From: an uncultured Actinomycetes bacterium
GTDB taxonomy: Bacteria > Actinomycetota > Actinomycetes > Nanopelagicales > Nanopelagicaceae
Assembly: GCA_903850565.1 (NCBI GenBank)
Contig: CAINLV010000059.1
Location: 15,981 to 79,980, forward strand
DNA length: 64,000 bases
Direction of reading: 5' to 3'
Part shown: positions 4,960 through 25,276 of the stretch, one piece after another
How the letters are laid out: every line of letters begins with the position of its first letter
How positions within the stretch are numbered: the first letter of the stretch is position 1
Position numbers and translations under genes: made by a program
Notes under the pieces: model-generated
Told to the model about the DNA's origin: nothing
Seen by the model: only the letters and a program-made list of their open reading frames with translations
Databases searched by the model: none

Positions 4960-4966
4960 AGGTAAA

Positions 4967-5041
4967 TGGAGCCCCCCGTCAGGATTGAACTGACGACCTT
5001 CCGCTTACAAGGCGGATGCTCTACCACTGAGCTAGGGAGGC
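4967..5041 (-). tRNA. tRNA-Thr (anticodon UGU), CCA encoded
   Basis: Reverse complement is GCCTCCCTAGCTCAGTGGTAGAGCATCCGCCTTGTAAGCGGAAGGTCGTCAGTTCAATCCTGACGGGGGGCTCCA. It folds as a cloverleaf: acceptor GCCTCCC/GGGGGGC, D-arm AGCTCAGTGGTAGAGC, anticodon stem TCCGC/GCGGA with loop CTTGTAA, and T-arm GTCAGTTCAATCCTGAC. Confidence 0.9.
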
Positions 5042-5151: not shown

Positions 5152-6069
5152 ATGCGTTTAGGAGTTTTAGATGTCGGCTCGAACACAGTTCACCTCCAAG
5201 TAGTCGATACCCACCCCGGAGCGCGCCCCAACCCAACCTTCAACTATAAGGAAGAGTTGCGGTTGACCGAGTATTTAGACCCCCAAAACAACATTTCAGA
5301 TGAAGGCATAATTCAACTTCGGCTATGTATTCAGCGCGCCATTTCTCAAGCAAAGTCCGTTCAAACCACCGAACTTCTTCCATTTGCAACCTCGGCGCTG
5401 CGAGAAGCCGATAATGGGGAATCGATAATCAAGGCTTTAAACGGCGAGTTCGAAATTGATCTGCAAGTCCTAACCGGGGAAGAAGAAGCGAAGTTAACCT
5501 TTTTGGCAGCGCGTCGATGGTTTGGTTGGTCCAGCGGGCGTCTTCTAGTCATCGATATCGGTGGCGGCTCACTTGAAATTGCAGTAGGCGTCGATGAATC
5601 ACCAGAGGTCGCCGTTTCGCTTCCGCTTGGTGCGGGTCGCTTAACTAAGAATCATCTGGTGGGCGATCCACACACTGAAAAAAGTATCAGAAATTTGCGC
5701 GAACACATTGAATCCCAGCTGGATGAAGTTCTACCGACCTTAGTTCATCATCAAGACAATGATCGAGCCATTGCAACTAGTAAAACTCTGCGAACTTTGG
5801 CAAGGCTGTGCGGAGATTGGTACGGCGGAAACGGAAAGATCATTAAAGTCGAAGCAATGAGAAAAATGTCAATAAGACTTGGTGAAATGTCATTGGAAGA
5901 GCGGACCAGAATCCCGGGAGTCTCGGCAAACCGAGCAAGACAAATTGTCGCGGGCGCTTTTGTTACTGAGAGCGTGATGCGTAATTTGGATTTACCTGAA
6001 CTTGAAATTTGCCCTTGGGCGTTGCGCGAAGGTGTTGTCCTTAAATGGATGGACTGGATGGAATCTTAA
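5152..6069 (+). CDS. ppx: Ppx/GppA-family phosphatase (exopolyphosphatase / pppGpp phosphohydrolase-like)
   Basis: 305-aa ORF. N-terminal actin-like ATPase motif LGVLDVGSNTVHLQVVD, and later VIDIGGGSLEI. Confidence 0.85.
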   Translation: MRLGVLDVGSNTVHLQVVDTHPGARPNPTFNYKEELRLTEYLDPQNNISDEGIIQLRLCIQRAISQAKSVQTTELLPFATSALREADNGESIIKALNGEFEIDLQVLTGEEEAKLTFLAARRWFGWSSGRLLVIDIGGGSLEIAVGVDESPEVAVSLPLGAGRLTKNHLVGDPHTEKSIRNLREHIESQLDEVLPTLVHHQDNDRAIATSKTLRTLARLCGDWYGGNGKIIKVEAMRKMSIRLGEMSLEERTRIPGVSANRARQIVAGAFVTESVMRNLDLPELEICPWALREGVVLKWMDWMES

Positions 6070-12122: not shown

Positions 12123-12607
12123 AATGAAACCACTAACGCACTTGCCATAACAAAAACGCCTTCACCCCGACCGGTAAATCCCATGCCATCGGTTGTGGTC
12201 GCCGAAATAGAAACTGGCGCACCCAAGGCTTCGCTGAGCACTGCTTGCGCTTCTGCTCGACGTGGCCCGATCTTAGGCTCGTTGCCCACGATTTGAAGAG
12301 ATACATTTCCAATCCTGAAATTATTTTCTTCAACAAATTTTTTCAAGAAATGCACCATCGAAATTCCCGATGCGCCTTTCCATTCCGGACGGTCTGTTCC
12401 AAAAAGTTCCCCGATATCGCCCAACTGGCATGCGGAAAGCACTGCATCGCACAACGCATGCACCGCCGCATCACCATCGGAATGACCGACCAATCTGCGC
12501 GATTGTGGCCACTCCAATCCCGCTAGCGCACATGGACCTTCATCACCGAATTGGTGTGCATCCACTCCTACGCCAGTGCGATAGGAAATATCAGGTAAGG
12601 AAGTCAA
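12119..12607 (-). CDS. ispF: 2-C-methyl-D-erythritol 2,4-cyclodiphosphate synthase
   Basis: 162 aa. Motifs GVGVDAHQF, GHSDGDAAVHALCDA and ATTTDGMGFTGRGEG. 4-nt overlaps with ptsH upstream and cysS downstream. Confidence 0.95.
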   Translation of the reverse strand: MTSLPDISYRTGVGVDAHQFGDEGPCALAGLEWPQSRRLVGHSDGDAAVHALCDAVLSACQLGDIGELFGTDRPEWKGASGISMVHFLKKFVEENNFRIGNVSLQIVGNEPKIGPRRAEAQAVLSEALGAPVSISATTTDGMGFTGRGEGVFVMASALVVSL

Positions 12608-12882
12608 TGATCGGCGCTCTCAACAATGACTTTGAGTGCGGCTGCGACTGAATCCTCTTCTGGACCTTCGACGCGAACAACAATTTCATCTCCGAATTTG
12701 ACCCCAAGGGTCATGACGCGAAGGACACTGGCGCCATCGATATCCGGGGAGAGCTCCCCCGTCGGGAGAACCTTGGCCAACCGAACCGAGCAACCGGAAG
12801 ATTTAGCGCTGGAAGCGAATAGTGCGGCGGGTCTGGCATGCAGGCCAACGGCGGAAGCAACGGTGGTTCGAAATTCTTTCAT
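12604..12882 (-). CDS. ptsH: Phosphocarrier protein HPr
   Basis: 92 aa. Active-site motif GLHARPAA (His-15 equivalent) and the downstream GASVLRVMTLG region. Confidence 0.9.
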   Translation of the reverse strand: MKEFRTTVASAVGLHARPAALFASSAKSSGCSVRLAKVLPTGELSPDIDGASVLRVMTLGVKFGDEIVVRVEGPEEDSVAAALKVIVESADH

Positions 12883-12963
12883 AAAGTAATCGTATCTCCC
12901 TCAAAAGTAGTGTTTAATATACACATCTATCCAGACACTTGCACAAATGTGAAGGTTGAGAAT

Positions 12964-13965
12964 ATGACCGTAGAACGCTTGCTGATGGGCCACCCGCTCT
13001 CCTCCCCCGATCATGCACGTCATGCCCTTCTCTATATGTATCGGATTCGAAAATTTGAAGAAGCGGTCGAAGATCTTTTCGGTCGCGGAATGATGCATGG
13101 AACTATGCACTTATCTATTGGCCAAGAAGCTGGGCCAACTGGAATGTGCTTGGCACTGAAATTGGAAGACCAAATTACTTCCACTCACCGCGGACATGGT
13201 CATTGCATTGCAAAAGGCGCAGATCTAACTCGGATGATGGCTGAGTTGCTTGGTAAAGAGATCGGTTATTGCGGCGGGCGCGGCGGCAGCATGCATATCG
13301 CCGATGCAGAAACCGGAAACCTAGGTGCCAATGGTGTTGTCGGTGGTGGAATTCCGATTGCAGTTGGAGCCGCTCTGGCCTCAAAACTGCAGAAGAAAGG
13401 CACAGTTGCAGTCTCCTTCTTCGGCGATGGCGCAATGAATGAGGGCGCATTCCACGAAGCAGCCAACTTGGCAGCAATTTGGAAACTTCCAGTAATACTT
13501 TTCTGCGAAAACAATAAATATGGCATGAGCTCTTCCACCGAAACTGCATTTGCCATCGATCGACTTGCCGACAGAGGCCTGGGCTATGGAATTCCAGGGG
13601 TAACGGTCGATGGAAATGATGTAGTTGCAGTCTATGAAGCGTGCGAAGCTGCAGTTGCTCGCGCGCGTAACGGCGAAGGTCCGACATTGATTGAAACCGT
13701 TACCTACCGCTGGAAGGGCCACTCTCGATCAGATAAGAATCTGTATCGAACCAAAGAGGAAATCGAAGAGTGGAAACATCTAGATCCAATTCCCAATTTC
13801 ATTTCTAAAGTCCTTGCCGCCGGAATCTTGAACCAAGAAGAGATTGATGCCATTGCAAAAATGGCACAGGATCAAATTATCGAAGCCGTAAACAATGCGG
13901 CCCAAGCAAAATCAGCAGTGCCAGATGGTCTACTAGAGGCAGTATTTAAGGCGGTCAGCGCATGA
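12964..13965 (+). CDS. Thiamine-diphosphate-dependent 2-oxoacid (pyruvate/acetoin) dehydrogenase E1 alpha subunit
   Basis: Motifs HLSIGQEA, the GGRGGSMH region and the TPP-binding [38 protein letters not shown]. Start re-chosen at MTVERLL (12964), because the track start at 12838 would overlap ptsH on the opposite strand. Confidence 0.85.
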
Positions 13966-14966
13966 GCACCGATAATCGCATGTTGACAATGGCCGAGGCA
14001 CTTCGTGAGGCCATGGGAATTGCAATGGATGAACGTCCTGAGGTTTTTATTTTGGGCGAGGATATTGGCATTTATGGTGGCGCTTTTGGAGTGACTGGTG
14101 ATCTCTATCATCGCTTTTCCCCAGAACGAGTAATCGATACTCCAATATCTGAACTTGGAATCGTCGGAGCAGCAGTTGGCGCCGCGTTATCTGGAATGCG
14201 TCCGATTGTTGAAATCCAATTTTCAGATTTCACCGCTCAGGCAATGGACCAGATCGCCAATCAGGCGGCAAAGATTCACTTCATGTTGGGTGGCGCACTC
14301 CACGTTCCACTGGTTCTGCGCACCCCGCAAGGTTCCGGCACCGGAGCTGCGGCGCAACACTCACAGAACTTGGAAACTTGGTTTGCCAACGTTCCTGGGC
14401 TAAAAGTTGTTGTTCCATCCAATCCAGCAGATGCAAAGGGCTTACTGCTTTCCGCAATTGACGATCCCAATCCAGTAATTTTCCTAGAGCACAAACTCCT
14501 CTACAAGATTCCTGGTCGCGATCCGGTTCCAGAAGGAGCAATCCGAATTCCGCTGGGCGTATCCAAAGTTGTTCGTGAAGGAAAAGATTTGACCTTGGTA
14601 GCTACTGGCATCATGGTGAATAAATCATTTGAAGTTGCCGAAAAATTGGCCGCTGAAGGGATTTCAATAACGCTTATCGATCCTCGAACTATTTCACCGC
14701 TGGATATGAATCCAATCTTTGAATCGGTGGAAAAAACTGGGCGCCTACTGGTGGTCCAAGAAGGTCCATCTCACGGTGGATTCATCAATGAAGTTATTGC
14801 CCGAGTAAGTGAAAGCTCCTCATTTGGTTCACTGATTGCTCCAATAAAGCGTTTGGCTGGAATGAATATTCCAATTCCATATGCACCTCAACTAGAAAAA
14901 GCAGCGGTTCCGCAAATTGAAGACATTGAAGTCGCTGCCCGCGAATTAGTTAAGAGCTGGCGATGA
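13962..14966 (+). CDS. 2-oxoacid dehydrogenase E1 beta subunit
   Basis: 334 aa. Segments [47 protein letters not shown] and [19 protein letters not shown]. 4-nt overlap with both neighbours. Confidence 0.9.
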
Positions 14967-16057
14967 GTTTTCGATATCCGGTAGTCATGCCGAAAATGAG
15001 CATGACTATGGAAACCGGCGAATTGATTGACTATCACGTCAAAGTTGGCGATCGAGTTAGTTCTGGCGATGTGCTCTTTGAGGTCATGACCGACAAGATC
15101 GACATGGAAGTGGAATCCCCCGCTGATGGCGTTGTGGAACAACTCATCGGTGAGGTCGGCGCCACCGTTGATATTGGAAAACCAGTCCTGATCTTGCTGA
15201 CTGACACCGAAGTAATGGCATTTGATTTTGGTGGAGAACCAGCGCAATTGCCGCCAGCACCTGCAATAGTTGAAGCCCTGCCCGTTATCGAAGCGGTTGT
15301 CGCAGTTCCTCAAATTAGCGTTCCTGAAGTCACAGCCCCGGTTGCGGTTGCGCCAGTGATTGTTTCGCACACATATAAGGCCGTTCCCAAAGCTCGTGTA
15401 GCTGCCGCTGAAACCGGAATTGATCTTCGGACGATTGTTCCCACAGGTCCAGATCGGACCATCATGTATTCAGATGTCATTAACCGGCACCCAACCGAAG
15501 AACAGTTAAAGCGTCAGGCCGCAAACCGCGCCCTGATTGCACGCGGTATTGAGATGACTCAAAATATCCCGCAAGCATCCTTTACTAGAAGCGTGACCGT
15601 TTCTGATTCAGGTTTGCCACATCTGATGAGTGCGTGGGCACGGGTCCTTCGTTCTCGCCCAGAGTTAAATGTCTCCGGTAAAGATGGATCATTGAATCCA
15701 CAGGTAGGAGTGGCCACCATTATTGAATCCAAATATGGAAGCGCCCTACCGGTTTACAAAGACCCTGACCTTTTGGATATGAAGACCCTCTCTGAACTTG
15801 TTTCTACAACAAGTACGGCTGCTCGACATGGAAAAGTTCCGTTAGCAATGCTCAGCGGAGCCACGACGACGGTATTCGATCTGCGCTCTTACCAAATGAC
15901 TTCCACGACCCCTCGGCTCTTTCCTCATCAAGTAACTGCGTTAACCATCGGTGAATCTTCTGGCGGCGCTATCGCAGTATCCCTGACCATCGACCTTCGA
16001 TATTGCGATTTTTATGATGGCGCTGGAGCGCTCGATTTGCTCGTAAAAACCCTCTAA
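14963..16057 (+). CDS. E2-like dihydrolipoamide acyltransferase homologue: lipoyl domain, E1/E3-binding domain and a divergent catalytic domain
   Basis: Lipoyl-lysine motif [17 protein letters not shown]. Subunit-binding domain [31 protein letters not shown]. The C-terminal domain aligns with E2 cores, but the signature reads [15 protein letters not shown] where DHRxxDG is expected. Confidence 0.75.
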
Positions 16058-16098
16058 ATCGACTAACTTTTCTATCGTCCTAGCGAAAAGAGAACCAT

Positions 16099-17793
16099 GT
16101 GATTGCTTTGAACGGAATTGCCGCAAGTTCGGGGGCAGCGCTTGGTCAATTCTTTTTGTTGACGACCGAAATCCCAGTGCCGTCACCTTCACCTTCGACA
16201 CTTCCGCTCTTAGAAGAGCGCCAAGTTCTCACTGATGCCATTAACTTTGTTGGAGCCGATTTAGAAGCAAGAGCCACTCGATCCACTGGTGAACTTGCCG
16301 AGATCCTGACCGCGATCGGAGAAATCGCAACCGATCCAGCGCTCCTGGAGGAAGCCTTTAACGTCATTGCTCAAGGACACAATGCCAGTTACGCAATTTC
16401 GCTAGCCACTGAAATTTTCAAGGAACTCTTGGAATCCTCGGGTGGTTACCTTGCCGAGCGCGTTTCTGATGTAGCCAATATTTGCGATCGAATCCTTTGC
16501 CGAATTGCCGGTGTGGAGTACCCAGAAATTCCACAATTCATCGTTCCCACGATTCTTATCGCTCGAGATTTATCTCCAGCAGATACCACTGACTTAGAAT
16601 CAGATCAGATTTTGGCGATTGTCACCGAAGGTGGCGGACCAACCAGTCATACCGCCATTATCGCTCGTTCCCGAGGAATTCCGGCGGTAGTCGCTTGCCC
16701 GGGAGTCGTTGAATATGCCCGTACTCAACACGGCTCACTCCTTGGAGTGGATGCAACCACTGGCGAAATTACCTTCAACCCGCCGGCTGAAATTCAAAGT
16801 CGGTTAGTCGAAAAAGTCGAGCGTATCCTCAAGCGAAAAGCGCAGTTGGTAAATCGAACTCCCCTGGGATATCAAACCCGCGATGGTCAAACCGTTCCCA
16901 TTTACGCCAACATCGGCGGATTGAAAGATGTGGATGTTGCCCTCAAGGCCGGCGCCGATGGCGTTGGGTTATTGCGAACCGAGCTGCTCTACCTGGATCG
17001 AAAACTTCCACCAACTTTGGAAGAACAAATTCAGATTTATACCGACCTCTTCACGCCATTCGCCGGTCAGAAAGTTGTTATCCGTACTTTGGACGCGGGT
17101 GCTGATAAACCAATGGCTTTTATTAATTTTGATCATGAACCTAACCCGGCTCTTGGAGTTCGCGGATACCGAACCGTCTACAAGCATGAAGATTTGCTGC
17201 GGATTCAACTAGAAGCTATCGCTGCTGCAACCATTGCATCGGGAACAAATGTTTGGGTTATGGCGCCCATGATTACTTTGCCACAAGAAGCTGCAAATTT
17301 TGTGGAGATGGCAAAAAGCTACGGCATCAAAACAGTAGGCGTCATGATCGAAGTTCCGGCCGCGGTATTTCATGCAGATGAACTAACCACCATTTGCGAC
17401 TTCGTCTCTATCGGCACCAATGATCTGGGTCAATACCTCCATGCCGCAGACCGTGAATCAGCGCCATTGGCTGCTTTCAACGATCCTTGGCAACCAGCAT
17501 TACTTCGAGCCATTTATCAAGTAGCGCAGGCAGGACTTCGAAATAACTGCCCAGTAGGAGTCTGTGGTGAAGCCGCCAGCGATGCAGCATTGGCTTCGGT
17601 GCTCTTGGGTCTAGGGGTCACTTCCCTCTCGTGCAGCGTCTCCACACTGCGGGATGTGGCTGCTGCCGTTTCCGCCTTGAGCTATCCAGAGTTGCAGTTA
17701 GCCGGCATCGCCGCGCTAGCGGCAGGCACTTCGCAGAAAACAAAGGAGAGCGCACGCGCGCAATTGTCAGCGTTAGAAGATTTAGGACTTTAA
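16099..17793 (+). CDS. ptsI: Phosphoenolpyruvate-protein phosphotransferase (PTS Enzyme I)
   Basis: 564 aa. Active-site His region GGGPTSHTAIIARSRGIPAVV, and PEP-utilising TIM-barrel motifs GLLRTELLY and FVSIGTNDLGQY. GTG start. Confidence 0.93.
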   Translation: MIALNGIAASSGAALGQFFLLTTEIPVPSPSPSTLPLLEERQVLTDAINFVGADLEARATRSTGELAEILTAIGEIATDPALLEEAFNVIAQGHNASYAISLATEIFKELLESSGGYLAERVSDVANICDRILCRIAGVEYPEIPQFIVPTILIARDLSPADTTDLESDQILAIVTEGGGPTSHTAIIARSRGIPAVVACPGVVEYARTQHGSLLGVDATTGEITFNPPAEIQSRLVEKVERILKRKAQLVNRTPLGYQTRDGQTVPIYANIGGLKDVDVALKAGADGVGLLRTELLYLDRKLPPTLEEQIQIYTDLFTPFAGQKVVIRTLDAGADKPMAFINFDHEPNPALGVRGYRTVYKHEDLLRIQLEAIAAATIASGTNVWVMAPMITLPQEAANFVEMAKSYGIKTVGVMIEVPAAVFHADELTTICDFVSIGTNDLGQYLHAADRESAPLAAFNDPWQPALLRAIYQVAQAGLRNNCPVGVCGEAASDAALASVLLGLGVTSLSCSVSTLRDVAAAVSALSYPELQLAGIAALAAGTSQKTKESARAQLSALEDLGL

Positions 17794-17795
17794 TC

Positions 17796-17854
17796 CGAGT
17801 GGCAAAACAATTCTCAAAATACTTTGAGAATATGCTTGAAAGAGTACCCACTCG
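17796..17854 (+). promoter_or_regulatory. Nested inverted repeats between ptsI and the sorC-type regulator gene (possible hairpin or operator)
   Basis: Outer arms are CGAGTGG (~17796-17802) and CCACTCG (~17848-17854). Inner arms are ATTCTCAAA (~17810-17818) and TTTGAGAAT (~17823-17831) with a 4-nt spacer. No U-tract follows. Confidence 0.3.
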
Positions 17855-17893
17855 TACACCACACTTAGCGAAATGTTCAATGACTGAACGGAT

Positions 17894-18868
17894 GTGACGA
17901 TAGTGAAACAACGAGAGACGGAGTTAATTCTTCGGGCTGCTCGGCTTTACTATGAGGACCACCATTCGCAAGATCAAGTTGCAGCGATGATGGGAACCTC
18001 GCGCTCCAACATCTCCAGAATGCTCTCCGATGCAAAGCGATTGGGTTTTGTTGAAATTCGCGTAGTCGCTCCAGTTACTCGACATGAAAATCTTTCCTCA
18101 CAATTGCAAAATCTCTTGGGGATCAAAGAAGTGCAAGTAATCACGACAGATAAGAATGAACTAGCTCTCAATGCTGTCGGACGCGCCGCCGCTAAGTCGC
18201 TAATCAATAGTTTGAGCAATAACCAAACCATTGCAATCTCTTGGGGTCGGGGCTTGGAAGCGACAATCGTCAACGTCCGAAGTGAGGCATTTACCGGATT
18301 GAAAGTTACCCAATTAATGGGTTCTCTCTCCTCGGTGACCACTTCTGCTAGCGCCGAAGAAGTTGGCCGCCAATTAGCAAAGAACCTCAATGCCCAATTT
18401 ATCCCGTTTTTAGCACCAGTGGTCGTGAGCAATTCCAGAACCCGAGACACCTTGCTGGAAGAAGAGATCATCACCAAGCCCATCAACCTGGCCCGTGCTG
18501 CCGATGTCGCAATCATTGGAATCGGCTCCAAAGGTTCCTCTTCAAGTGAAATGGTCATTAACGAATTTAAATTCTCTAAAGCCGAGCGAGATCTGCTTTA
18601 TGAAAACTATGCCGGCGATGTTGCGGCCCGTTTCTACGATCTTTCCGGACAGAGTTTGAGTAGCAAGATGGATAAGCGAGTCCTAGGTCTGACCCTTGCC
18701 GAGATTCGAACAATTCCTCGGGTTATTGGTGTCGCCTCCGGCACTGAGAAAGCTTTCGGAGTTATCGGAGCAGCGCGTTCGCAAATGTTGGATGTCTTAA
18801 TAGTTGATCTGGTTTGTGCCAATTCCATCATGAAAACCCTAGCCCCAACGGCGGTGAAGAGCGCATGA
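17894..18868 (+). CDS. SorC/DeoR-family sugar-binding transcriptional regulator
   Basis: 324 aa. N-terminal HTH AARLYYEDHHSQDQVAAMMGTSRSNISRMLSDAKRLGFVEI, followed by a sugar-phosphate-binding domain (ISWGRGL, IGIGS). Confidence 0.85.
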   Translation: MTIVKQRETELILRAARLYYEDHHSQDQVAAMMGTSRSNISRMLSDAKRLGFVEIRVVAPVTRHENLSSQLQNLLGIKEVQVITTDKNELALNAVGRAAAKSLINSLSNNQTIAISWGRGLEATIVNVRSEAFTGLKVTQLMGSLSSVTTSASAEEVGRQLAKNLNAQFIPFLAPVVVSNSRTRDTLLEEEIITKPINLARAADVAIIGIGSKGSSSSEMVINEFKFSKAERDLLYENYAGDVAARFYDLSGQSLSSKMDKRVLGLTLAEIRTIPRVIGVASGTEKAFGVIGAARSQMLDVLIVDLVCANSIMKTLAPTAVKSA

Positions 18869-19266
18869 CCTACTTAACCAAACTCTTATTAGTTATTGCC
18901 GCAATGTGGGCTTCGCAATTAGCCCTTGCTTATTTGCAAGCAAAGAAATTTCAAGCAGATCTAAAGTCTTTACGTAAATCAGGAACCGTTGCCGTAGGTA
19001 TGGGCGGCAAAAGGTACAGGGGTGGTCGAGCATTTGTTGCTCTCGCCGCTGATGAATCTGGCGTAATCGTCGACGGGCTGGTCCTTCGCGGACTTACCGT
19101 CTTCGCTAAGTCGCGCCCACTTCATGCATACAAAGGATTCTCACTCGACGAGATGATCTCGGGTACCCGGGACGTAGAAAATGAACCAAAGAAAGTGAAG
19201 GAAGCGGCGAAGATGTCGGCCCAACACATTCAGGATCATTTAACACGAATCGCGTCAGGAGAATAA
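18865..19266 (+). CDS. gutM: Glucitol operon activator GutM-like protein
   Basis: Start re-chosen at MTYLTKLLLVIAAMWASQLALAYLQAKKFQ (ATGA overlap with the sorC stop). One N-terminal TM helix and the conserved LRGLTVFAK segment, as in E. coli GutM. Confidence 0.8.
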   Translation: MTYLTKLLLVIAAMWASQLALAYLQAKKFQADLKSLRKSGTVAVGMGGKRYRGGRAFVALAADESGVIVDGLVLRGLTVFAKSRPLHAYKGFSLDEMISGTRDVENEPKKVKEAAKMSAQHIQDHLTRIASGE

Positions 19267-19294
19267 TGATCGGTTACATACAGATGGGTCGATC

Positions 19295-19310
19295 ATTGAA
19301 GTACTTCAAT
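19295..19310. promoter_or_regulatory. Perfect 16-bp palindrome ATTGAAGTACTTCAAT upstream of srlA (candidate operator)
   Basis: Read directly. It lies ~30 nt upstream of the srlA GTG/AGGAGG RBS, immediately after an 8-bp stem hairpin (AATGATCG...CGATCATT, ~19265-19297) that follows the gutM stop. Confidence 0.35.
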
Positions 19311-19339
19311 CATGTTCTAACTTACTTAGGAGGTGTCTA

Positions 19340-19939
19340 GTGTTCCTGTCCGGTCTGATTACGTTATCAGCTATTACGGTGGACAAACCAACCGGCTTTC
19401 TTGGCGCGTTGGCAACTGGCGCTGAAGATTTCATCAAAGTCTTCAACAAAGGTGGATCAGTTCTTCTCAGTCTTATGGGCGGAATTCTTCCAACACTGAT
19501 TGTTCTTCTGACTGCAGTTAATGCACTCGTAAGAATTATCGGTGCAGAACGAATCGAAAATCTTGGTAAGGCTGCTGCTCGTCCTGGAATCCAGTGGTAT
19601 CCAGTTCGTTACATCCTCCTTCCATTCGTTGCCGTATTTGTTCTCACAAACCCTATGGCATACACAATGGGTCGCTTCCTCCCAGAGCGCTTTAAGCCAG
19701 CGTTCTATGACTCAGCAGTTTCATTCGTACACCCAATCCTGGGAATCTTCCCTCACGCTAACCCAGGTGAGCTTTTCGTATACCTCGGTATCGCAACCGG
19801 TATCAAGGAACTTGGCTTCGGCTTAGGTGACTTGGCTATCCGTTACCTACTCGTAGGCCTTGTTGTCATCTTCATCCGCGGAATCGTTACCGAACGAATC
19901 ACTGCGCGAATGATGGCTAAAGCCGAAAGGAGTGCATGA
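19340..19939 (+). CDS. srlA: PTS glucitol/sorbitol-specific EIIC component (SrlA-type)
   Basis: 199 aa. Collinear with E. coli SrlA, including NALVRIIGAERIE, LTNPMAYTMGRFLPERFKP, HANPGELFVYLGIA and YLLVGLV. GTG start with an AGGAGG RBS. Confidence 0.9.
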   Translation: MFLSGLITLSAITVDKPTGFLGALATGAEDFIKVFNKGGSVLLSLMGGILPTLIVLLTAVNALVRIIGAERIENLGKAAARPGIQWYPVRYILLPFVAVFVLTNPMAYTMGRFLPERFKPAFYDSAVSFVHPILGIFPHANPGELFVYLGIATGIKELGFGLGDLAIRYLLVGLVVIFIRGIVTERITARMMAKAERSA

Positions 19940-20490
19940 CCATGGAGGGATTCACAAATCTCATTGTAAAAATCGGCCGTGGCGTCGGTGGAGTAGTTGG
20001 AACTCTCTACCAGGCAGGTCGTGATTCGGTAGATACCGTAATCCGTAACGTCATTCCATTTATGGCGTTTATCTCCTTCATCATCGGTTTAATTCTGACA
20101 ACTGGTGTTGGTGACTGGATCGCTAAAGGTCTGAAGGGCTCTGCTTCTTCACTCCCAGGTCTGTTGCTAATTTCCATCGTCTGCGCAATTCCAATCCTGT
20201 CTCCATTGCTTGGACCAGGAGCTGTTATCGCTCAGATCGTCGGAACTTTGCTCGGTGTTGAAATTGGTAAGGGAAACATCCCTGCGCAATACTCACTACC
20301 AGCACTATTCGCTATCAACCCACAGGTTGGTTGCGACTTCATTCCGGTGGGTCTTGCACTTGGCGAAGCCGAGCCTGAGACTGTCGAGATCGGTGTTCCT
20401 GCGGTTCTATTCTCCCGCGTGATCACTGGCCCTCTTTCAGTCGTCATTGCTTACTTTGCAAGCTTTGGCCTGTATCACACCAGTAAGTAA
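19936..20490 (+). CDS. srlE: PTS glucitol/sorbitol EIIC2 (equivalent of the C-terminal membrane half of SrlE)
   Basis: 184 aa, membrane protein. The FAINPQVGCDFIPVGLALGEAEPETV segment is typical of the SrlE C-terminal domain. Confidence 0.85.
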   Translation: MTMEGFTNLIVKIGRGVGGVVGTLYQAGRDSVDTVIRNVIPFMAFISFIIGLILTTGVGDWIAKGLKGSASSLPGLLLISIVCAIPILSPLLGPGAVIAQIVGTLLGVEIGKGNIPAQYSLPALFAINPQVGCDFIPVGLALGEAEPETVEIGVPAVLFSRVITGPLSVVIAYFASFGLYHTSK

Positions 20491-20507
20491 GAATAAGCAC
20501 GATGGAT

Positions 20508-20537
20508 ATCAAGGTGCGGGGCAACTCGCACCTTGAT
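20508..20537 (+). other. Perfect 11-bp stem hairpin inside the PTS operon (between the EIIC2 and EIIB genes)
   Basis: ATCAAGGTGCG-GGGCAACT-CGCACCTTGAT. It is followed by TGCTTAACTT, so no proper U-tract. It sits in a 135-nt intergenic gap. Confidence 0.4.
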
Positions 20538-20625
20538 TGCTTAACTTAAAAATCTCAGCAAAATCAGAATAACTTTTACTACCATTAGAAATAATTAGTT
20601 TTCTTAAGCTACCGAGGAGCAAATC

Positions 20626-20997
20626 ATGGGTGAATATAAGAGCGTAACAATTTCAGCCGGCCGTGGCGGTTGGGGCGGTCCATTGACCATCACACCAACA
20701 GATGAGAAGCCATACATATATTCGGTCACCGGTGGTGGAATTCATCCAGTTGCACAACGGATCGCCGACATAACTGGCGGAACTCCATTTGATGGCTTTA
20801 AGAGCAGCGTGCCTTTCGACAAAATTGCTGTTGCAGTTATTGATTGCGGTGGAACTGCCCGAGTAGGCGTCTATCCAATGAAGAAGGTCTTGACCGTAGA
20901 TATCCATGCAACTAGTCCTGCAGGACCACTGGCAATGTTCATCACAAAAGAGCTATTCGTCTCTGGCGTAAAAGCCGACGATATTAAGGAAGGCTAA
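20626..20997 (+). CDS. srlE: PTS glucitol/sorbitol EIIB domain protein (equivalent of the N-terminal domain of SrlE)
   Basis: 123 aa. Segment KSVTISAGRGGWGGPLTITP, and the active-site Cys region AVIDCGGTARVGVYP, as in the N-terminus of E. coli SrlE. Confidence 0.85.
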   Translation: MGEYKSVTISAGRGGWGGPLTITPTDEKPYIYSVTGGGIHPVAQRIADITGGTPFDGFKSSVPFDKIAVAVIDCGGTARVGVYPMKKVLTVDIHATSPAGPLAMFITKELFVSGVKADDIKEG

Positions 20998-21002
20998 AGC
21001 GG

Positions 21003-21371
21003 TTGAATGAAATAGTTTATTCAACCACCGTTACATCAGTAGGAGAACTTGTGGCCGATTTTCGGGAACAAGGTGTTTTAGTCTTTTTCGGAGAGAACGC
21101 TCCTATTGAGCTACACGAATTTTCTATCCTTCATAAACCCGATATTGAAACTCGTGCCCCGCGAACCGGAGACACGATTCGATTAAGTGATGAAAAATTT
21201 ACCGTTCTAGCAGTGGGATCAGTGGCCGGCGACAACTTAATGAGTCTTGGCCACTTAGATCTAAAAGCAAATGGATTTTCCGAAGCAGAGTTGCCCGGAG
21301 ATGTTAACGTCGAAGTTCGAGAACTTCCATCCGTAAAAGTTGGAGATCGCTTAGAAGTTATCTCGGCTTAG
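21003..21371 (+). CDS. srlB: PTS glucitol/sorbitol-specific EIIA
   Basis: 122 aa. Collinear with E. coli SrlB (TVLAVGSVAGDNLMSLGHLDLKANGFSEAELPGDVNV). TTG start. Confidence 0.9.
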   Translation: MNEIVYSTTVTSVGELVADFREQGVLVFFGENAPIELHEFSILHKPDIETRAPRTGDTIRLSDEKFTVLAVGSVAGDNLMSLGHLDLKANGFSEAELPGDVNVEVRELPSVKVGDRLEVISA

Positions 21372-21409
21372 TCGAAACTCAAGCACCACAACAGAAAAGA
21401 GAAAATGAA

Positions 21410-22702
21410 GTGTCTTACTCATCCAGACTTGAAGCACATGCAAAGTCGATCGGAAGAGATACAAAAATTGCAATCGTAGGTGCGGGCCAAATGGGCCATG
21501 GATTTGGTTGCCAAGTTGATCGGATGCCTGGTTTAACAGTCTCCCTGGTTATCGATATCGACCCAGCCCGAATCACAGCGCTCTACCTAGATCTTGGTGA
21601 AGCCAACCCGGTTATCAGCGATGATAAGAATGAAATCACTCAGGCGCTTGTGGCTGGCAAGCGAGTGGGTACCACTGTTTCCTCCTTCTTATCAGAGTTG
21701 CCCATTGACTTTGTTGTGGAAGCGACTGGAGTACCTGAAATTGGTGCTCAAATTACTTACTCGTGCTTAAAGGCAAAGATGGATGTCGCTGTTTTGAATG
21801 TGGAGATGGATGTAACCATCGGACCACTACTTCATAAAACAGCGGTCGATAATGGTGTGATCTACACCGTCTGTCACGGTGATGAACCTATTGAAGCAAA
21901 GGTTTTGGTGGATTATGCCCGCGACCTTAATTTCGAAGTGGTCGCTGCTGGAAAAGGAAAGAACAATCCATTCGAGCCATTGAGCAATCCAGATTCAGTG
22001 CGCGAACGTGCGACCGCAAAAAATATGAATCCAAAAATGTTGTGCTCCTTCACTGATGGTTCTAAGACCATGACTGAAATGGTTGCCTTGGCAAATACCA
22101 CGGGGATTCCATTATCAAAGCGCGGTATGTACGGACCAGCTGCCACAGTTAAGACTTTGAACAACGTCTTTGCTCTCAAAGAAGATGGCGGCGTTCTTGA
22201 TAAGGCTGGAGTAATTGATTATTGCACCGGTGATGTTGCCCCTGGAGTCTTCGTTATCGTTCGGAGCGATTCGAAATATATCAATCACGAGATGACTTAC
22301 TTGGGCATGGGCCCTGGCCCTTACTTCACTTTGTACCGCCCTTATCACTTGGCTTCAGTTGAGGCACCAATGTCGGTTGCTCGTGCCGTTGTTGATCGTG
22401 AGTCTTCATTGTTTGCAACCAGCTTGATCGCTGAAGTTGTGACCATGAGTAAAAAGGACTTAGTAGCGGGCGAAAAAATCGACGGTATCGGTGGCTTCAC
22501 GGTTCGTGGATATGCAGATATCGCCGCTGATGCTCGTGCCGAGAACTTAGTTCCAATTGGCCTAATTCAAAATGCCATCATGAAGCGAGATGTGCCAGTT
22601 GGAACATTGCTTACTTATGATGATGTAGAACTAGATAAGAACAGTCTGATTGTTGCGCTTCGCAAGGAGCAAGATGAAATGGGCCTTACCTACGCCTCAT
22701 AA
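21410..22702 (+). CDS. NAD(P)-dependent oxidoreductase with C-terminal SAF-like domain (COG4091, homoserine-dehydrogenase-like family)
   Basis: 430 aa. Rossmann motif KIAIVGAGQMGHGF, and a C-terminal KKDLVAGEKIDGIGGFTVRGY segment. It is the last gene of the PTS gene string. GTG start. Confidence 0.65.
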   Translation: MSYSSRLEAHAKSIGRDTKIAIVGAGQMGHGFGCQVDRMPGLTVSLVIDIDPARITALYLDLGEANPVISDDKNEITQALVAGKRVGTTVSSFLSELPIDFVVEATGVPEIGAQITYSCLKAKMDVAVLNVEMDVTIGPLLHKTAVDNGVIYTVCHGDEPIEAKVLVDYARDLNFEVVAAGKGKNNPFEPLSNPDSVRERATAKNMNPKMLCSFTDGSKTMTEMVALANTTGIPLSKRGMYGPAATVKTLNNVFALKEDGGVLDKAGVIDYCTGDVAPGVFVIVRSDSKYINHEMTYLGMGPGPYFTLYRPYHLASVEAPMSVARAVVDRESSLFATSLIAEVVTMSKKDLVAGEKIDGIGGFTVRGYADIAADARAENLVPIGLIQNAIMKRDVPVGTLLTYDDVELDKNSLIVALRKEQDEMGLTYAS

Positions 22703-23034
22703 TCAGGATCTAGCTCTGGTTCAGATGTAGCGCTTGTCAGTCCAAGTTCTCTCATGAGTTTGCGTTGGCGAGGAGTTAACGGGTCGCGCTTTTTGGGTTT
22801 TTTTCCAGAGGTAGCGACCCGTTGCGCTTCTTCCCTGTTTTCTTTCTCTCGGGCTTGACCATCCTCAATGGCCATTTCGCCAGTTGCCATCAATCCCAAC
22901 TCCGCCATCAACTCTTCTTGGGCTTGAGTAAATAGACCTTGATTCTGATGTTTCTTCAGATACTGAGCTTTTATTTTGGCCGCCTTTGCTTCGGGTGTGA
23001 GTTTTTCCCCACCTCGAAATCGTCTTAGCGCCAT
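22690..23034 (-). CDS. Hypothetical small charged protein with an internal duplicated motif
   Basis: Start chosen at MALRRFRGG (the track ORF starts at 23052). Motifs are LTPEAKAAKIKAQYL / LTPRQRKLMRELGL and ELMAELGLMATGE / KLMRELGLTSATSE. I recognise no family. Confidence 0.4.
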   Translation of the reverse strand: MALRRFRGGEKLTPEAKAAKIKAQYLKKHQNQGLFTQAQEELMAELGLMATGEMAIEDGQAREKENREEAQRVATSGKKPKKRDPLTPRQRKLMRELGLTSATSEPELDPDYEA

Positions 23035-23059
23035 GAAATTAGTCTGACACAATTAACCT

Positions 23060-23761
23060 ATGAAGTCTCAAATGCGTGCCGCAGTCGTCGTTTTGGCGGC
23101 TGGCTCTGGATCGCGCTTTGGACACGTCACCAACAAGGTCTGGTTGCCTTTGAGCGGGCGCCGAATCATCTCCCGATCATTAGTGAATGCGACAAAAAGT
23201 TTCCGAGGTTGCCGAACAATTTTGATCATAAACCCCGATGACGCGCAACTGGCAAAGACGACCCTGGCACGCGAAGTTCCCCAGTTAAAAGTCGAAATTG
23301 TTCCTGGTGGCGCGACTCGGCACGAATCCGAATATCACGCGTTGACTTATCTAGCCCCAGAAATTGAATCGGGTGAAATAAACGTTGTTCTCATCCACGA
23401 CGGGGCCAGGCCGTTGGCCACGAGTTCGCTCTTTCGGAATATTGCCGAAGCTGCGCATCGTCACGGAGGTGCGCTTCCGGCCATCAAAGTTTCCCTGCGC
23501 GAGATGGATCTTCAGAGCAGCGAAACAGTAGTGAGAGTTCAAACTCCTCAAGCCTTTCAAGCAGAACCACTTTTAAGAGCGTATCGTCAGGCCTATCAGG
23601 ATGAATTTCACGGAACCGATACGGCCGCCTGCATGGAGAAGTATTTTCCAGATATTCAGACAAAAGCCGTCGAAGGTGAAGTTTCGAATGTCAAAATTAC
23701 ATACCCGCAAGATCTGGCAATTGCAGAACATGTACTGGAAGTAAGGAGGTATAAAGATTGA
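23060..23761 (+). CDS. ispD: 2-C-methyl-D-erythritol 4-phosphate cytidylyltransferase
   Basis: 233 aa. Motifs VVLAAGSGSRFG, GGATRHES, VLIHDGARPL, VQTPQAF, TDTAACME and VEGEVSNVKITYPQDLAIAE all match canonical IspD. Confidence 0.9.
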   Translation: MKSQMRAAVVVLAAGSGSRFGHVTNKVWLPLSGRRIISRSLVNATKSFRGCRTILIINPDDAQLAKTTLAREVPQLKVEIVPGGATRHESEYHALTYLAPEIESGEINVVLIHDGARPLATSSLFRNIAEAAHRHGGALPAIKVSLREMDLQSSETVVRVQTPQAFQAEPLLRAYRQAYQDEFHGTDTAACMEKYFPDIQTKAVEGEVSNVKITYPQDLAIAEHVLEVRRYKD

Positions 23762-24069
23762 GTAATGAAATTTTAGAAGCGGAATTAAATTGTGCCCAAT
23801 GTCAGCAAGAAACCCTTCATCAATTGCGTTATGCCGGGCGACTTCTTGTTTCTACAACCTGCTCAGTCTGCAAGGCACAGGTTAAGCACGAATCAAATGA
23901 ACTTCGCATTCACTATGCCAAGGATCTACAGCATCGGATCGCGACGAAACCTTGGCGATTATGGAAGCGATTTTGGCGAGCACCCAAGGCGGTCTTTTGG
24001 AGTTTTCCTCGTAAAGCGTTAGGTCAACCTTTTAAAATATGGCGCGAATACCGAAATATTGGGAAATAG
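23758..24069 (+). CDS. Hypothetical zinc-ribbon protein with a basic Trp-rich C-terminus
   Basis: 103 aa. Motif CAQC-x21-CSVC, then WRLWKRFWRAPKAVFWSFPRKALGQPFKIWREYR. TTG start overlaps the ispD stop by 4 nt. Confidence 0.5.
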   Translation: MSNEILEAELNCAQCQQETLHQLRYAGRLLVSTTCSVCKAQVKHESNELRIHYAKDLQHRIATKPWRLWKRFWRAPKAVFWSFPRKALGQPFKIWREYRNIGK

Positions 24070-24088: not shown

Positions 24089-24763
24089 TTAGCGGGCAAC
24101 TGTTTTTTGCCAATGTAAGAACGATGCCAAGAGCGAGAGTTCATCGTTGGAATTCACTCGAATTGATTCTGGATCTGAGTCCACATAACTGATCGCAATT
24201 TTTTCTCGAAGTGGAAAGAACCAGCCAGAATTTTCGCCGTTACCCTTTTGCTCGAAATCAATTGCGGTGGTTCGAACAATTTCTGGCGAGGAAATTCTTC
24301 GTACCGTTGTGCGGTCGATGGTGTGCTTAATAAAGGCATCGTCTGAAATCGCTTTAAGCGTCTCTGTAAATGGGGTGGATGCCCTTGCGGCATCGGCATT
24401 GGAGAGGAGCGCTTCCAGTGTGGTGTGAAACTGTCCAATTTGAGTAAGCGGTCGGTTGGAATCATGAACTGCAACAAACTCGTAGTTTGTAAGTTCGGCC
24501 TTGATTTCTTTCGCTAGCGAAACCGGATCATTGGGGTCACAGATAATTGGCTGATATTCGATGCCAGCTTCCATCAACATTTCACCAACCTGCACTGAGA
24601 GCTCGTGAGGCATGGCCACCAAAATCGGGTGCTTCTCCCCTACCGCCCGAGCAAATGCTTGAGCCACCAGCGCCGAGGAGACCAACACAAAAGAATCCCC
24701 CAAGGGTGCCAGTGCAGTTTTAGAAGTAACTACAACGACGACCTTGAGGGATGGAATTGTCAC
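24089..24763 (-). CDS. IspD-fold paralogue with degenerate catalytic motifs (candidate pseudoenzyme) in the canonical carD-ispD position
   Basis: 224 aa. It retains VAVHDSNRPL, TPFTETLK and VDSDPESIRVNSNDELSLLASFL, collinear with the IspD motifs. The N-terminal GxGxR loop is replaced by VVVVVTSKTALAPLGDS, and QTPQ by SSPE. Confidence 0.65.
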   Translation of the reverse strand: MTIPSLKVVVVVTSKTALAPLGDSFVLVSSALVAQAFARAVGEKHPILVAMPHELSVQVGEMLMEAGIEYQPIICDPNDPVSLAKEIKAELTNYEFVAVHDSNRPLTQIGQFHTTLEALLSNADAARASTPFTETLKAISDDAFIKHTIDRTTVRRISSPEIVRTTAIDFEQKGNGENSGWFFPLREKIAISYVDSDPESIRVNSNDELSLLASFLHWQKTVAR

Positions 24764-24793: not shown

Positions 24794-25276
24794 TTATGAA
24801 GCCAAGACCTCGTCAAGGATGACTCCGGCTTTTTCTTCATCGGTGCGTTCGGCGAGCGCTAATTCTGAGATCAGAATCTGCTTGGCCTTGGCCAACATTC
24901 GCTTCTCTCCGGCAGATAGACCACGATCTAAGTCGCGGCGATAGAGATCTCGAACAACCTCAGCCACTTTGATAACGTCTCCAGAAGCCAGTTTTTCAAC
25001 ATTGGCTTTGTAGCGACGGGACCAGTTGGTGGGTTCTTCGGTATATGGCTGGCGTAGAACGTTAAATACCCGATCCAAACCGGCGCTATCTACAACATCT
25101 CGAACTCCGACTAGGTCCACATTTTCTGCTGGAACCCGAACCGTGAGGTCGCCTTGGGCAATCTTGAGAACTAAATAAATCTTGTCTTCGCCTTTAATGG
25201 TCCGAGTCTCAATCGCTTCGATGAGAGCCGCTCCGTGATGGGGATAAACAACGGTTTCGCCGACCTTAAATGACAT
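24794..25276 (-). CDS. carD: CarD-family RNA polymerase-binding transcription regulator
   Basis: 160 aa. [37 protein letters not shown] is near-canonical CarD/CdnL. Confidence 0.95.

What the first reader, a model, noticed from the sequence alone, without database searches (positions are those of the whole stretch)
24089..24763. Degenerate IspD paralogue kept at the canonical carD-ispD position while an intact ispD sits 300 bp away on the other strand
The gene directly downstream of carD, which is the normal actinobacterial ispD slot, is collinear with IspD (VAVHDSNRPL, TPFTETLK, VDSDPESIRVN...). It lacks the N-terminal AAGxGxR CTP-binding loop, having VVVVVTSKTALAPLGDS instead. QTPQ is replaced by SSPE and NIKVT by SIRVN.

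A second gene at 23060-23761 has every canonical motif. So the syntenic copy looks like a pseudoenzyme or a neofunctionalised nucleotidyltransferase, with its ORF still intact.
Basis: partly seen in the sequence, partly recalled or inferred. Interest (0 to 1): 0.6.

Follow-up and report, generated by a model that had tools for sequence, protein, structure and literature searches.

The report
Dead IspD partner of short-armed IspD
The gene after carD is a conserved, catalytically dead copy of the isoprenoid enzyme IspD that keeps only the "arm" residues which normally reach into the partner subunit's active site. The neighbouring active IspD lacks exactly those residues, so the two most likely work as a two-protein enzyme that has not been described before.

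Summary
ORF 24089-24763(-), 224 aa, lies directly after carD. It has a full IspD fold (AF2 pLDDT 89.9; TM about 0.75-0.78 to solved IspDs).

It lacks the whole CTP and catalytic site:
- the P-loop G18-R20 is deleted;
- K27 is I/T/V and K213 is R;
- G82, R85 and S88 are lost.

It is not a pseudogene. dN/dS is 0.03-0.10, and 57 of 59 species-level Nanopelagicaceae (acI) genomes carry an intact ORF; the other two are cut by contig ends.

It keeps every MEP-site residue, above all the beta-arm T140 (ETLK) and R157 (DR). The "intact" ispD at 23060-23761 is not fully canonical. It keeps the CTP site and both lysines, but its beta-arm is 10 residues shorter and lacks the DTxK motif.

This complementary pair is also found in other Actinomycetes. 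Database names include Nocardioides, Kineosporiaceae and others. The usual layout is carD, partner, then IspD2 convergent. The two genes co-diverge. Natural fusions exist, for example in Carbonactinospora thermoautotrophica, and one metagenomic fusion sits between carD and ispF.

These genomes have IspG and no HMG-CoA reductase. Most have no other full-length IspD hit.

Best reading (about 0.55): a heterodimeric IspD with a pseudoenzyme "arm donor". This rests on computation only.

The parts
24089..24763 (-). dIspD: a non-catalytic IspD paralogue and the proposed arm-donor subunit. The P-loop and both catalytic lysines are lost. HD..RP, ETLK (T140) and DR (R157) are kept.
   Evidence: site table; dN/dS; AF2 pLDDT 89.9, IspD fold TM 0.75-0.78.
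23060..23761 (+). IspD2: a catalytic IspD-type cytidylyltransferase. It has the P-loop, K27, K213, D106 and R109. Its beta-arm is 10 residues shorter and lacks DTxK.
   Evidence: It forms one clade with short-arm IspDs of other Actinomycetes.
23758..24069 (+). Zn-ribbon ORF of 103 aa (CxxC...CxxC plus a basic Trp-rich tail). Its start overlaps the IspD2 stop. It may be a third component.
   Evidence: no family. It is conserved after IspD2 in the window's genus, G011, G012 and L108, and is also found in G083 and G042. It is absent in the Planktophila-type clade.
24794..25276 (-). carD, immediately upstream of dIspD on the same strand with a 30-nt gap.
   Evidence: The carD-partner adjacency recurs in the Nocardioides-type and Kineosporiaceae loci.
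21410..22702 (+). DXR-II (DRL), the alternative DXP reductoisomerase. It replaces DXR-I, which is missing from this genome.
   Evidence: DRL_cat 204 bits. (304 bits to Brucella DRL 3upy; K191/K193, T229 and R320 are kept). (DRL present and DXR absent in exactly the dIspD/IspD2 genomes of the family sample).
12838..24069 (.). An 11.2-kb block between the ispD slot and ispF. It holds 2-oxoacid dehydrogenase E1a/E1b/E2, PTS EI, a SorC-type regulator, GutM, a gut-type PTS EIIC/EIIBC/EIIB/EIIA, DXR-II, orf120, IspD2 and the Zn-ribbon ORF.
   Evidence: Canonical genera of the family have carD-ispD(F)-ispF-cysS contiguous.
12119..12607 (-). ispF, separated from the ispD slot by the block above.
   Evidence: (G000:C59:28111-28560 corresponds to window 12131-12580).

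Best explanation
dIspD is the non-catalytic subunit of a two-protein IspD.

In canonical IspD homodimers the beta-arm of each subunit forms the dimer interface. It also supplies MEP-binding residues, T140 and R157 in E. coli numbering, to the other subunit's active site.

Here the two roles are split between two paralogues:
- IspD2 (23060-23761) keeps the CTP site and the two transition-state lysines, but has a shortened arm without the DTxK motif.
- dIspD (24089-24763) has lost the CTP site and both lysines, but keeps a full-length arm with T140 and R157.

The predicted heterodimer has one complete active site, made of the IspD2 core and the dIspD arm, and one dead site. dIspD is therefore kept under purifying selection as an arm donor.

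Shown: the complementary residue pattern, purifying selection, strict co-occurrence, co-divergence, natural fusions, and, in the genomes tested, a MEP-only isoprenoid route with IspD2-type as the only catalytically equipped IspD (one tested genome, G077, also has a canonical IspD).

Inferred: the physical heterodimer and its necessity for catalysis.
For: 1. Complementary sites.
   - dIspD has lost G16, G18-R20, K27, G82, R85, S88 and K213.
   - dIspD keeps D106, R109, T140, K142 and R157 in 57-59 of 59 sequences.
   - IspD2 keeps all CTP and catalytic residues, but the span from HD to TPQ is 52 residues against 62 in canonical IspD, with no DTxK.
   - Across Actinomycetes, 0 of 70 IspD2-type proteins have DTxK. 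All 20 partners keep D(T/S)x(K/T) plus DR, although they have lost different other parts.

2. Selection. dN/dS of dIspD is 0.095, 0.033 and 0.053 in the three closest pairs. 57 of 59 loci carry an intact full-length ORF; the other 2 are cut by contig ends.

3. Linkage.
   - dIspD lies convergent to and next to (Znr-)IspD2 in almost every Nanopelagicaceae locus long enough to show the neighbour; in one (L052) neither Znr nor IspD2 was detected in the about 0.7 kb downstream.
   - It stays with IspD2 when separated from carD. In the G011 clade carD and ispF are directly adjacent and the block lies elsewhere.
   - 18 of 20 IspD2-type loci from other actinomycete genera have a partner adjacent. 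Of the other two, G050 has a partner elsewhere and G077 has a canonical IspD.

4. Fusions (Rosetta stone).
   - Partner then IspD2: P0191, P0346 (Carbonactinospora thermoautotrophica), P0258 and P0327.
   - IspD2 then partner: P0197 and P0225.
   - P0191 sits between carD and ispF.
   - The AF2 model of P0191 has pTM 0.85 over both domains despite a disordered linker.

5. Co-divergence. Partner and IspD2 subclades mirror each other. Pairwise distances correlate with r = 0.88.

6. Necessity of the activity. IspG is present and HMG-CoA reductase absent in all 7 genomes tested, and ispF is present. In 5 of the 6 genomes tested outside the family, the only other full-length IspD-family hits are the partner-type gene next to or paired with IspD2 (P-loop or catalytic lysines lost; in G083 also a third, unexamined hit).

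7. Literature. K27 and K213 stabilise the transition state (PMC5020098). The beta-arm is the dimer attachment point and contains the MEP site (PMC11770629, PMC5099578). The trans role of T140 and R157 is from my memory of Richard et al. 2001 and 2004.
Against: - There is no direct evidence of a complex. The tools offer no multimer prediction and give no access to model coordinates.
- The two genes are convergent, so they are not co-transcribed. That is unusual for obligate subunits.
- An Arg two residues before QTPQ (VVRVQTPQ) is invariant in Nanopelagicaceae IspD2. HMMER aligns it with the R157 equivalent of B. subtilis IspD, so IspD2 may lack only T140. That Arg is not conserved in the wider IspD2-type family.
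- Nanopelagicaceae dIspD also keeps D106 and R109, which an arm donor would not obviously need.
- One genome (G077) pairs an IspD2-type gene with a fully canonical IspD.
Confidence: 0.55

Rival explanations
1. dIspD is a stand-alone, catalytically dead ligand-binding protein. As a homodimer it would have a complete MEP half-site (D106, R109, T140', R157') without any CTP site. It would sense or buffer MEP or CDP-ME, or act as a scaffold for IspE/IspF or CarD-linked regulation. IspD2 would work on its own.
For: - All four MEP-site residues are invariant in Nanopelagicaceae dIspD.
- The gene is co-oriented with carD and close behind it.
- The family has its own invariant motifs (GWFxPL, FLHWQ) that suggest a new surface.
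- IspD2 and dIspD are transcribed convergently, not as one operon.
Against: - Outside Nanopelagicaceae the partners have lost R109 (to C or Y), and some have lost D106. Only the arm is universal.
- Fusions to IspD2-type domains in both orders point to joint action with the catalytic paralogue.
- This reading does not explain why IspD2-type proteins always lack DTxK.
- dIspD stays with IspD2, not with carD, when synteny breaks.
Confidence: 0.25
2. dIspD is a neofunctionalised enzyme, either a nucleotidyltransferase or another activity on a phosphosugar alcohol. It would use a remodelled N-terminal site.
For: - The full fold is retained with high model confidence.
- Arg is invariant at the K213 position and the family has its own conserved motifs.
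Against: - The P-loop is shortened by about 8 residues, with no Gly-rich motif.
- K27 and the base-recognition residues G82/S88 are replaced by variable residues.
- The N-terminal half is the least conserved part. It is further truncated in the Nocardioides-type partners of 165-200 aa.
Confidence: 0.05
3. dIspD is a decaying relic (pseudogene) of the native ispD after displacement by IspD2. It would stay open by chance, or be kept only for DNA- or RNA-level reasons such as the carD 3' region.
For: - It evolves 2-10 times faster at the protein level than IspD2.
- It scores far below the IspD equivalog cut-off.
Against: - dN/dS is 0.03-0.10.
- The ORF is intact in 57 of 59 species-level genomes spanning 36-91% identity.
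- 44 columns are invariant in the 10-sequence alignment.
- Homologous partners occur in other families and as fusions.
- It is retained after separation from carD.
Confidence: 0.03

Closest known systems
[quoted passage not shown]
   Same: - Same fold, with a Rossmann-like core and a beta-arm (TM 0.75-0.78).
- Same genomic slot after carD.
- MEP-site residues D106, R109, T140 and R157 are conserved.
- The arm has the canonical length of 62 residues from HD to TPQ.
   Different: - There is no P-loop, no K27, no K213 and no cytosine-recognition residues, so no CDP-ME synthesis is expected from this chain alone.
- It scores 46 bits against the 181-bit equivalog cut-off.
- It always accompanies a second, short-armed IspD.
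Pseudoenzyme partners of active paralogues ("prozyme" type, e.g. trypanosomatid AdoMetDC prozyme and deoxyhypusine synthase heteromers; from my own knowledge)
   Same: - It is a paralogue of the enzyme and lacks catalytic residues.
- It is under purifying selection.
- It is genetically coupled to the active paralogue.
- It is predicted to complete or activate the partner's site across the dimer interface.
   Different: - It is bacterial and belongs to the MEP pathway.
- The degeneration is complementary: the active subunit has lost the trans-acting arm motif.
- Fusion variants exist.
- Complex formation and activation have not been tested here.
Bifunctional IspDF fusion (PDB 1W55; the roughly 380-aa IspDF of other Nanopelagicaceae genera)
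   Same: It occupies the same carD-ispD-ispF neighbourhood and is another way of remodelling the IspD quaternary structure.
   Different: IspDF joins a fully canonical IspD to IspF. Here two IspD-type domains, one of them dead, are paired or fused, and IspF stays separate.
DXR-II/DRL replacement of DXR-I (Sangari 2010; Carretero-Paulet 2013, PMC3847144)
   Same: It is another non-canonical solution for a MEP-pathway step. In Nanopelagicaceae it is encoded next to IspD2 and co-occurs with the pair.
   Different: DXR-II is a non-homologous replacement. The dIspD/IspD2 pair consists of homologues that divide one enzyme's functions. The pair also exists without DXR-II in Kineosporiaceae and in the Nocardioides-type loci.

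Membership tests
IspD (PF01128 / TIGR00453, CDP-ME synthase) | Sequence match to the family profile above the curated cut-off | tested here: inconclusive
   Pfam PF01128 gives 37.9 bits against a gathering score of 27, but only over profile positions 81-166. The NCBIfam equivalog TIGR00453 gives 46.4 bits against a cut-off of 181.3, which is not met.
IspD (PF01128 / TIGR00453, CDP-ME synthase) | IspD fold (Rossmann-like core plus beta-arm) | tested here: met
   AF2 gives pLDDT 89.9 and pTM 0.85. Foldseek top hits are all IspD/TarI, with TM 0.71-0.78 over about 225 columns.
IspD (PF01128 / TIGR00453, CDP-ME synthase) | Gly-rich P-loop PAAGxGxR (G16, G18, R20) that binds CTP | tested here: not met
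   G16 is T. G18-R19-R20 are deleted in 59 of 59 sequences. The loop is about 8 residues shorter.
IspD (PF01128 / TIGR00453, CDP-ME synthase) | Transition-state lysines K27 and K213 | tested here: not met
   K27 is I/T/V/L. K213 is R in 59 of 59 sequences. The role of these residues is described in PMC5020098.
IspD (PF01128 / TIGR00453, CDP-ME synthase) | Cytosine-recognition motif GGxxRxxS (G82, R85, S88) | tested here: not met
   G82 is D/N/E. R85 and S88 are variable.
IspD (PF01128 / TIGR00453, CDP-ME synthase) | MEP-site residues D106, R109, T140 and R157 | tested here: met
   Counts are 59/59, 57/59, 59/59 and 59/59.
IspD (PF01128 / TIGR00453, CDP-ME synthase) | CDP-ME synthase activity | not testable with these tools
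   This needs an enzyme assay or complementation.
Pseudoenzyme subunit of a heteromeric enzyme | Paralogue of an active enzyme encoded in the same genome, with catalytic residues lost | tested here: met
   IspD2 is adjacent.
Pseudoenzyme subunit of a heteromeric enzyme | Maintained by purifying selection | tested here: met
   dN/dS is 0.03-0.10. 57 of 59 ORFs are intact.
Pseudoenzyme subunit of a heteromeric enzyme | Physical complex with the active paralogue | not testable with these tools
   Support is indirect only: natural fusions in both orders, fusion model pTM 0.85, and co-divergence with r = 0.88.
Pseudoenzyme subunit of a heteromeric enzyme | The active paralogue depends on it | tested here: inconclusive
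   IspD2-type proteins lack DTxK in 70 of 70 cases, while partners keep it in 20 of 20 plus 59 of 59. Every IspD2-type genome examined (6 outside the family) has a full-armed IspD-like gene. No biochemical test was possible.

The most novel reading that the evidence does not exclude
A sizeable minority of Actinomycetes (27 of 301 sampled genomes, 9 genera, including the abundant freshwater acI lineage and proteins named from cultured Nocardioides) would make CDP-ME with an obligate heterodimeric IspD. One paralogue carries the catalytic core. A pseudoenzyme paralogue lends the trans-acting beta-arm residues T140 and R157. The arrangement would be a product of complementary degeneration of an ancestral homodimer, and in some lineages the two halves are re-fused into one chain.
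Probability: 0.55. Interest if true: 0.8.

Novelty: new variant of a known kind. Interest (0 to 1): 0.72.

Why it matters
- IspD is an essential MEP-pathway enzyme and a drug and herbicide target. It has always been described as a homodimer with two equivalent sites.
- A natural split into a catalytic subunit and a pseudoenzyme arm donor would be a clear bacterial example of complementary degeneration in an obligate dimer.
- It would correct the annotation of many genes. [quoted passage not shown]
- It bears on metabolic reconstructions of acI Actinobacteria, which are among the most abundant freshwater bacteria.
- It can be tested directly in tractable hosts (E. coli complementation, cultured Nocardioides).

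Tried and rejected
- **In-place decay of the family's own ispD.** Rejected for three reasons:
  - dIspD does not group with canonical Nanopelagicaceae IspDs;
  - the pair exists in other families;
  - in the G011 clade carD and ispF are adjacent while the block lies elsewhere.
- **Pseudogene reading.** Rejected on dN/dS.
- **G027 DRL hit.** Checked as a possible outgroup context. It is only 31% identical and has no IspD2 or PTS nearby, so it is DLO-like and irrelevant.
- **Long "IspD" proteins P0369, P0370, P0348, P0350 and P0406.** These are not fusions. Their extra parts are low-complexity gene-call extensions.
[quoted passage not shown] MAFFT placed the single partners on the catalytic half, so the fusion model has only 4 sequences there.
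- **Literature searches.** Searches for a heteromeric or paralogous IspD and for isoprenoid genes in acI found nothing relevant. A search for a methylerythritol PTS in the held library found nothing.
- **The search for homologous proteins with IspD2.** The result list was saturated by Nanopelagicaceae. The representative library was needed to see outgroups.

Full report
**1. What is there**

The window is G000:C59:15981-79980 of a 2.03-Mb draft genome with about 47-50% GC. Related loci carry titles of Nanopelagicaceae and Candidatus Planktophila, the acI freshwater Actinobacteria.

ORF 24089-24763(-) is 224 aa and starts with GTG. I call it dIspD. It lies 30 nt downstream of carD (24794-25276) on the same strand.

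- Pfam IspD matches only residues 83-168 (37.9 bits).
- TIGR00453 gives 46 bits against a cut-off of 181.
- The best solved relative is M. tuberculosis IspD (28.7 bits).
- An AF2 model built on a 66-sequence alignment has pLDDT 89.9 and pTM 0.85. All top Foldseek hits are IspD/TarI chains, with TM 0.71-0.78 over about 225 columns. The whole fold is therefore kept, not only the middle.

**2. Catalytic residues**

I aligned 59 dIspD, 57 IspD2 and 15 canonical actinobacterial IspDs with E. coli IspD. Its numbering reproduced every published residue number.

dIspD has lost:
- G16, now T;
- G18-R19-R20, deleted;
- K27, now I/T/V;
- G82, now D/N/E;
- R85 and S88, both variable;
- K213, now R in 59/59;
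- T215, now N.

dIspD keeps:
- D106 (59/59) and R109 (57/59);
- T140 within an invariant ETLK (59/59), and K142 (59/59);
- D156-R157 (59/59);
- T/S165-P166.

K27 and K213 are the transition-state lysines (PMC5020098).

**3. It is not a pseudogene**

- NG86 dN/dS in the three closest pairs is 0.095, 0.033 and 0.053. IspD2 gives 0.008-0.036 and CarD about 0.01.
- A pattern scan of one genome per species found 59 loci, all of them Nanopelagicaceae or unclassified actinobacterial MAGs.
- 57 loci carry a full-length ORF and 2 are cut by contig ends.
- Identity to the window protein ranges from 91% down to 35%.
- A 10-sequence alignment has 44 invariant columns, concentrated in HD..RPLT, FTETLK, T.DR..RR.S.PE, W.PL, PE..R.N and F.HW.

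**4. The "intact" ispD is itself unusual**

IspD2 (23060-23761, 233 aa) is a full-length IspD hit. It has the P-loop, K27, G82/R85/S88, D106, R109, QTPQ and K213.

- Its TIGR00453 score of 155 is below the 181 cut-off.
- Its best solved relative is B. subtilis IspD (98 bits), not a mycobacterial one (54 bits).
- The span from HD to TPQ is 52 residues, against 61-62 in canonical IspDs and in dIspD. The DTxK motif (T140) is missing.

The beta-arm is the main dimer interface and carries the MEP site (PMC5099578, PMC11770629). T140 and R157 act across the dimer in E. coli IspD; this is from my memory of Richard et al. 2001 and 2004.

The two paralogues are therefore complementary. One has the core without the arm motif. 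The other has the arm without the core.

**5. Genomic context in the family**

Canonical genera have senX3-regX3-lipoprotein-carD-ispD (or a roughly 380-aa IspDF)-ispF-cysS.

In the window's genus, G011 and G012, an 11-13-kb block lies between the ispD slot and ispF. It contains:
- 2-oxoacid dehydrogenase E1a, E1b and E2;
- PTS EI, a SorC-type regulator and GutM;
- a gut-type PTS;
- DRL, orf120, IspD2 and a Zn-ribbon ORF.

The same genomes lack DXR-I and have DRL. All 30 other relatives have DXR-I, and all but G027 lack a DRL-family hit. The DRL is of DXR-II type: 304 bits to Brucella 3upy, with K191/K193, T229 and R320 kept (residues per PMC3847144).

Across the 59 loci, dIspD is convergent to (Znr-)IspD2-DRL in almost every case where the contig allows. 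In L052 neither Znr nor IspD2 was found in the about 0.7 kb downstream. In one clade the 3' ends of the two genes overlap.

In the G011-like clade carD and ispF are directly adjacent. There dIspD has moved away together with IspD2-DRL. Its retention therefore does not depend on carD.

**6. The pair exists outside Nanopelagicaceae**

A search of 1.84 billion representatives with IspD2 returned one representative for the Nanopelagicaceae clade. The next hits were proteins at 43-51% identity and of actinobacterial character. All lacked DTxK.

Their contexts:
- L108 has gut PTS-DRL-IspD2-Znr convergent to partner-carD.
- A Kineosporiaceae MAG has carD-TRAM-partner convergent to IspD2, then ispF-cysS, with no DRL or PTS.
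- In 301 sampled Actinomycetes genomes, an IspD2-type gene occurs in 27, spread over 9 genera.
- 18 of 20 fetched loci have a weak-scoring IspD-family gene adjacent, mostly as carD-partner convergent to IspD2 with ispF nearby.
- Of the two exceptions, G050 has a partner-type gene 1.6 Mb away and G077 has a fully canonical IspD.

Database names for IspD2-type proteins include Nocardioides spp., Nocardioidaceae and Kineosporiaceae.

All 20 partners lack the P-loop. They have lost different further residues: R109 is C or Y, some have lost D106, and many are truncated at the N-terminus. All keep D(T/S)x(K/T) ... DR in the arm, and most have Arg at the K213 position.

G083 holds an intermediate. 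Its carD-adjacent copy is still Gly-rich, but K27 is A and K213 is E.

**7. Fusions**

- Partner then IspD2: P0191 (459 aa), P0346 (479 aa, Carbonactinospora thermoautotrophica), P0258 and P0327.
- IspD2 then partner: P0197 and P0225.
- P0191 is encoded between carD and ispF.
- Its AF2 model has pLDDT 88.5 and pTM 0.85 over 459 residues. Only the linker (212-221) is disordered. The partner-domain arm has pLDDT 92-95. That fits a fixed pseudo-dimeric packing.
- Caveats: coordinates could not be inspected, and the N-terminal half had only 4 aligned sequences.

**8. Phylogeny**

- IspD2-type proteins form one clade (SH-aLRT 99).
- Partners and dIspD fall among canonical actinobacterial IspDs, but not with the canonical Nanopelagicaceae IspDs.
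- Partner subclades mirror IspD2 subclades.
- Pairwise distances correlate with r = 0.89 within Nanopelagicaceae and 0.88 outside.
- Long branches make deep placements unsafe (warnings).

The data fit an old pair inherited or transferred together. They do not fit in-place decay in this lineage. Within one genus (g17), some species have the canonical IspDF and others have the pair. That points to replacement of the carD-ispF interval, plausibly by recombination in the conserved flanks (inference).

**9. The activity is needed**

- All seven genomes tested have IspG and none has HMG-CoA reductase.
- ispF is present in 40 of 41 relatives.
- In G050, G042, G127 and G296 the only full-length IspD-family hits are the IspD2-type gene and its partner. 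G083 has a third, unexamined hit.
- IspD activity must therefore come from IspD2, alone or with the partner.

**10. Verdict**

The most economical mechanism is a heterodimeric IspD. dIspD lends its arm, with T135 and R151 in window numbering, to complete the IspD2 site. I give this about 0.55.

Main rival (about 0.25): dIspD is a stand-alone MEP-binding, non-catalytic protein. This is suggested by the invariant D106 and R109 in this family and by the convergent transcription.

Other points that lower confidence in the heterodimer reading:
- an invariant Arg in VVRVQTPQ of Nanopelagicaceae IspD2 might stand in for R157, although it is not conserved family-wide;
- G077 pairs an IspD2-type gene with a canonical IspD.

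I found no paper describing a heteromeric or pseudoenzyme-partnered IspD. Another first-stage note reports the same layout in a different genome (e1-4198256; unchecked).

Noticed in passing
window 17894-22702; family sample: DXR-I is absent and a DXR-II (DRL) is present in exactly the dIspD/IspD2 clade of Nanopelagicaceae. The DRL takes the place of the sorbitol-6-P dehydrogenase at the end of a complete gut-type PTS operon, and the same PTS-DRL-IspD2 order is seen in L108. From memory, the Salmonella sorbitol PTS takes up 2-C-methyl-D-erythritol (Testa et al. 2004). This may therefore be a salvage and supply module for MEP or DXP.
   Followed up: partly
window 23758-24069; L108:2843-3211; L112 about 4662-4985; L127 about 5733-6065: The Zn-ribbon ORF (CxxC...CxxC plus a basic Trp-rich tail) overlaps the IspD2 stop in the window. 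It follows the IspD2-type gene closely in at least three other actinomycete lineages (39-40% identity in two of them). It is absent in the Planktophila-type and Nocardioides-type loci. It may be a third component. No family match was found.
   Followed up: partly
P0230 (232 aa, JGI metagenome): This is a chimeric IspD. The N-terminal roughly 160 aa look like the canonical Nanopelagicaceae IspD, including the P-loop, DTIK and QTPQGF. The C-terminal part is nearly identical to IspD2 (GTDTASCMEKYFPDVHT...NVKITYPQDL). It is either a real recombinant or an assembly chimera.
   Followed up: no
L112:3436-4131 (G083): The carD-side IspD next to an IspD2-type gene looks like an early stage of the same degeneration. 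GG.TR.ES, HD..RP, SDTVK, DR and QTPQ are intact, but K27 is A, K213 is E and the P-loop Arg is displaced.
   Followed up: partly
L103:8324-9336 (G011) against L035: In the G011-like clade carD and ispF are directly adjacent with a 65-bp gap. The whole block from dIspD to the 2-oxoacid dehydrogenase genes lies on another contig, next to zwf/pgl/6PGDH-like genes and a conserved protein of roughly 190-230 aa (ETPRL.LHHI motif).
   Followed up: partly
genus g17 (G240, G252, G305 against 17 other genomes): Within one genus of complete 1.3-1.5-Mb genomes, some species carry the canonical IspDF and others carry the dIspD/IspD2 pair. This implies recent replacement of the carD-ispF interval between close relatives.
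   Followed up: no
G000:C92:3701-4720 (outside the window): The genome's own IspG (GcpE) match is reported with one in-frame TAA in the surrounding open frame. This may be a sequencing error, a real disruption, or a stop just outside the gene.
   Followed up: no
window 22690-23052 (-): A small, highly charged 120-aa ORF lies between DRL and IspD2 on the opposite strand. It is conserved at 35-88% identity across the clade and has no family match.
   Followed up: no
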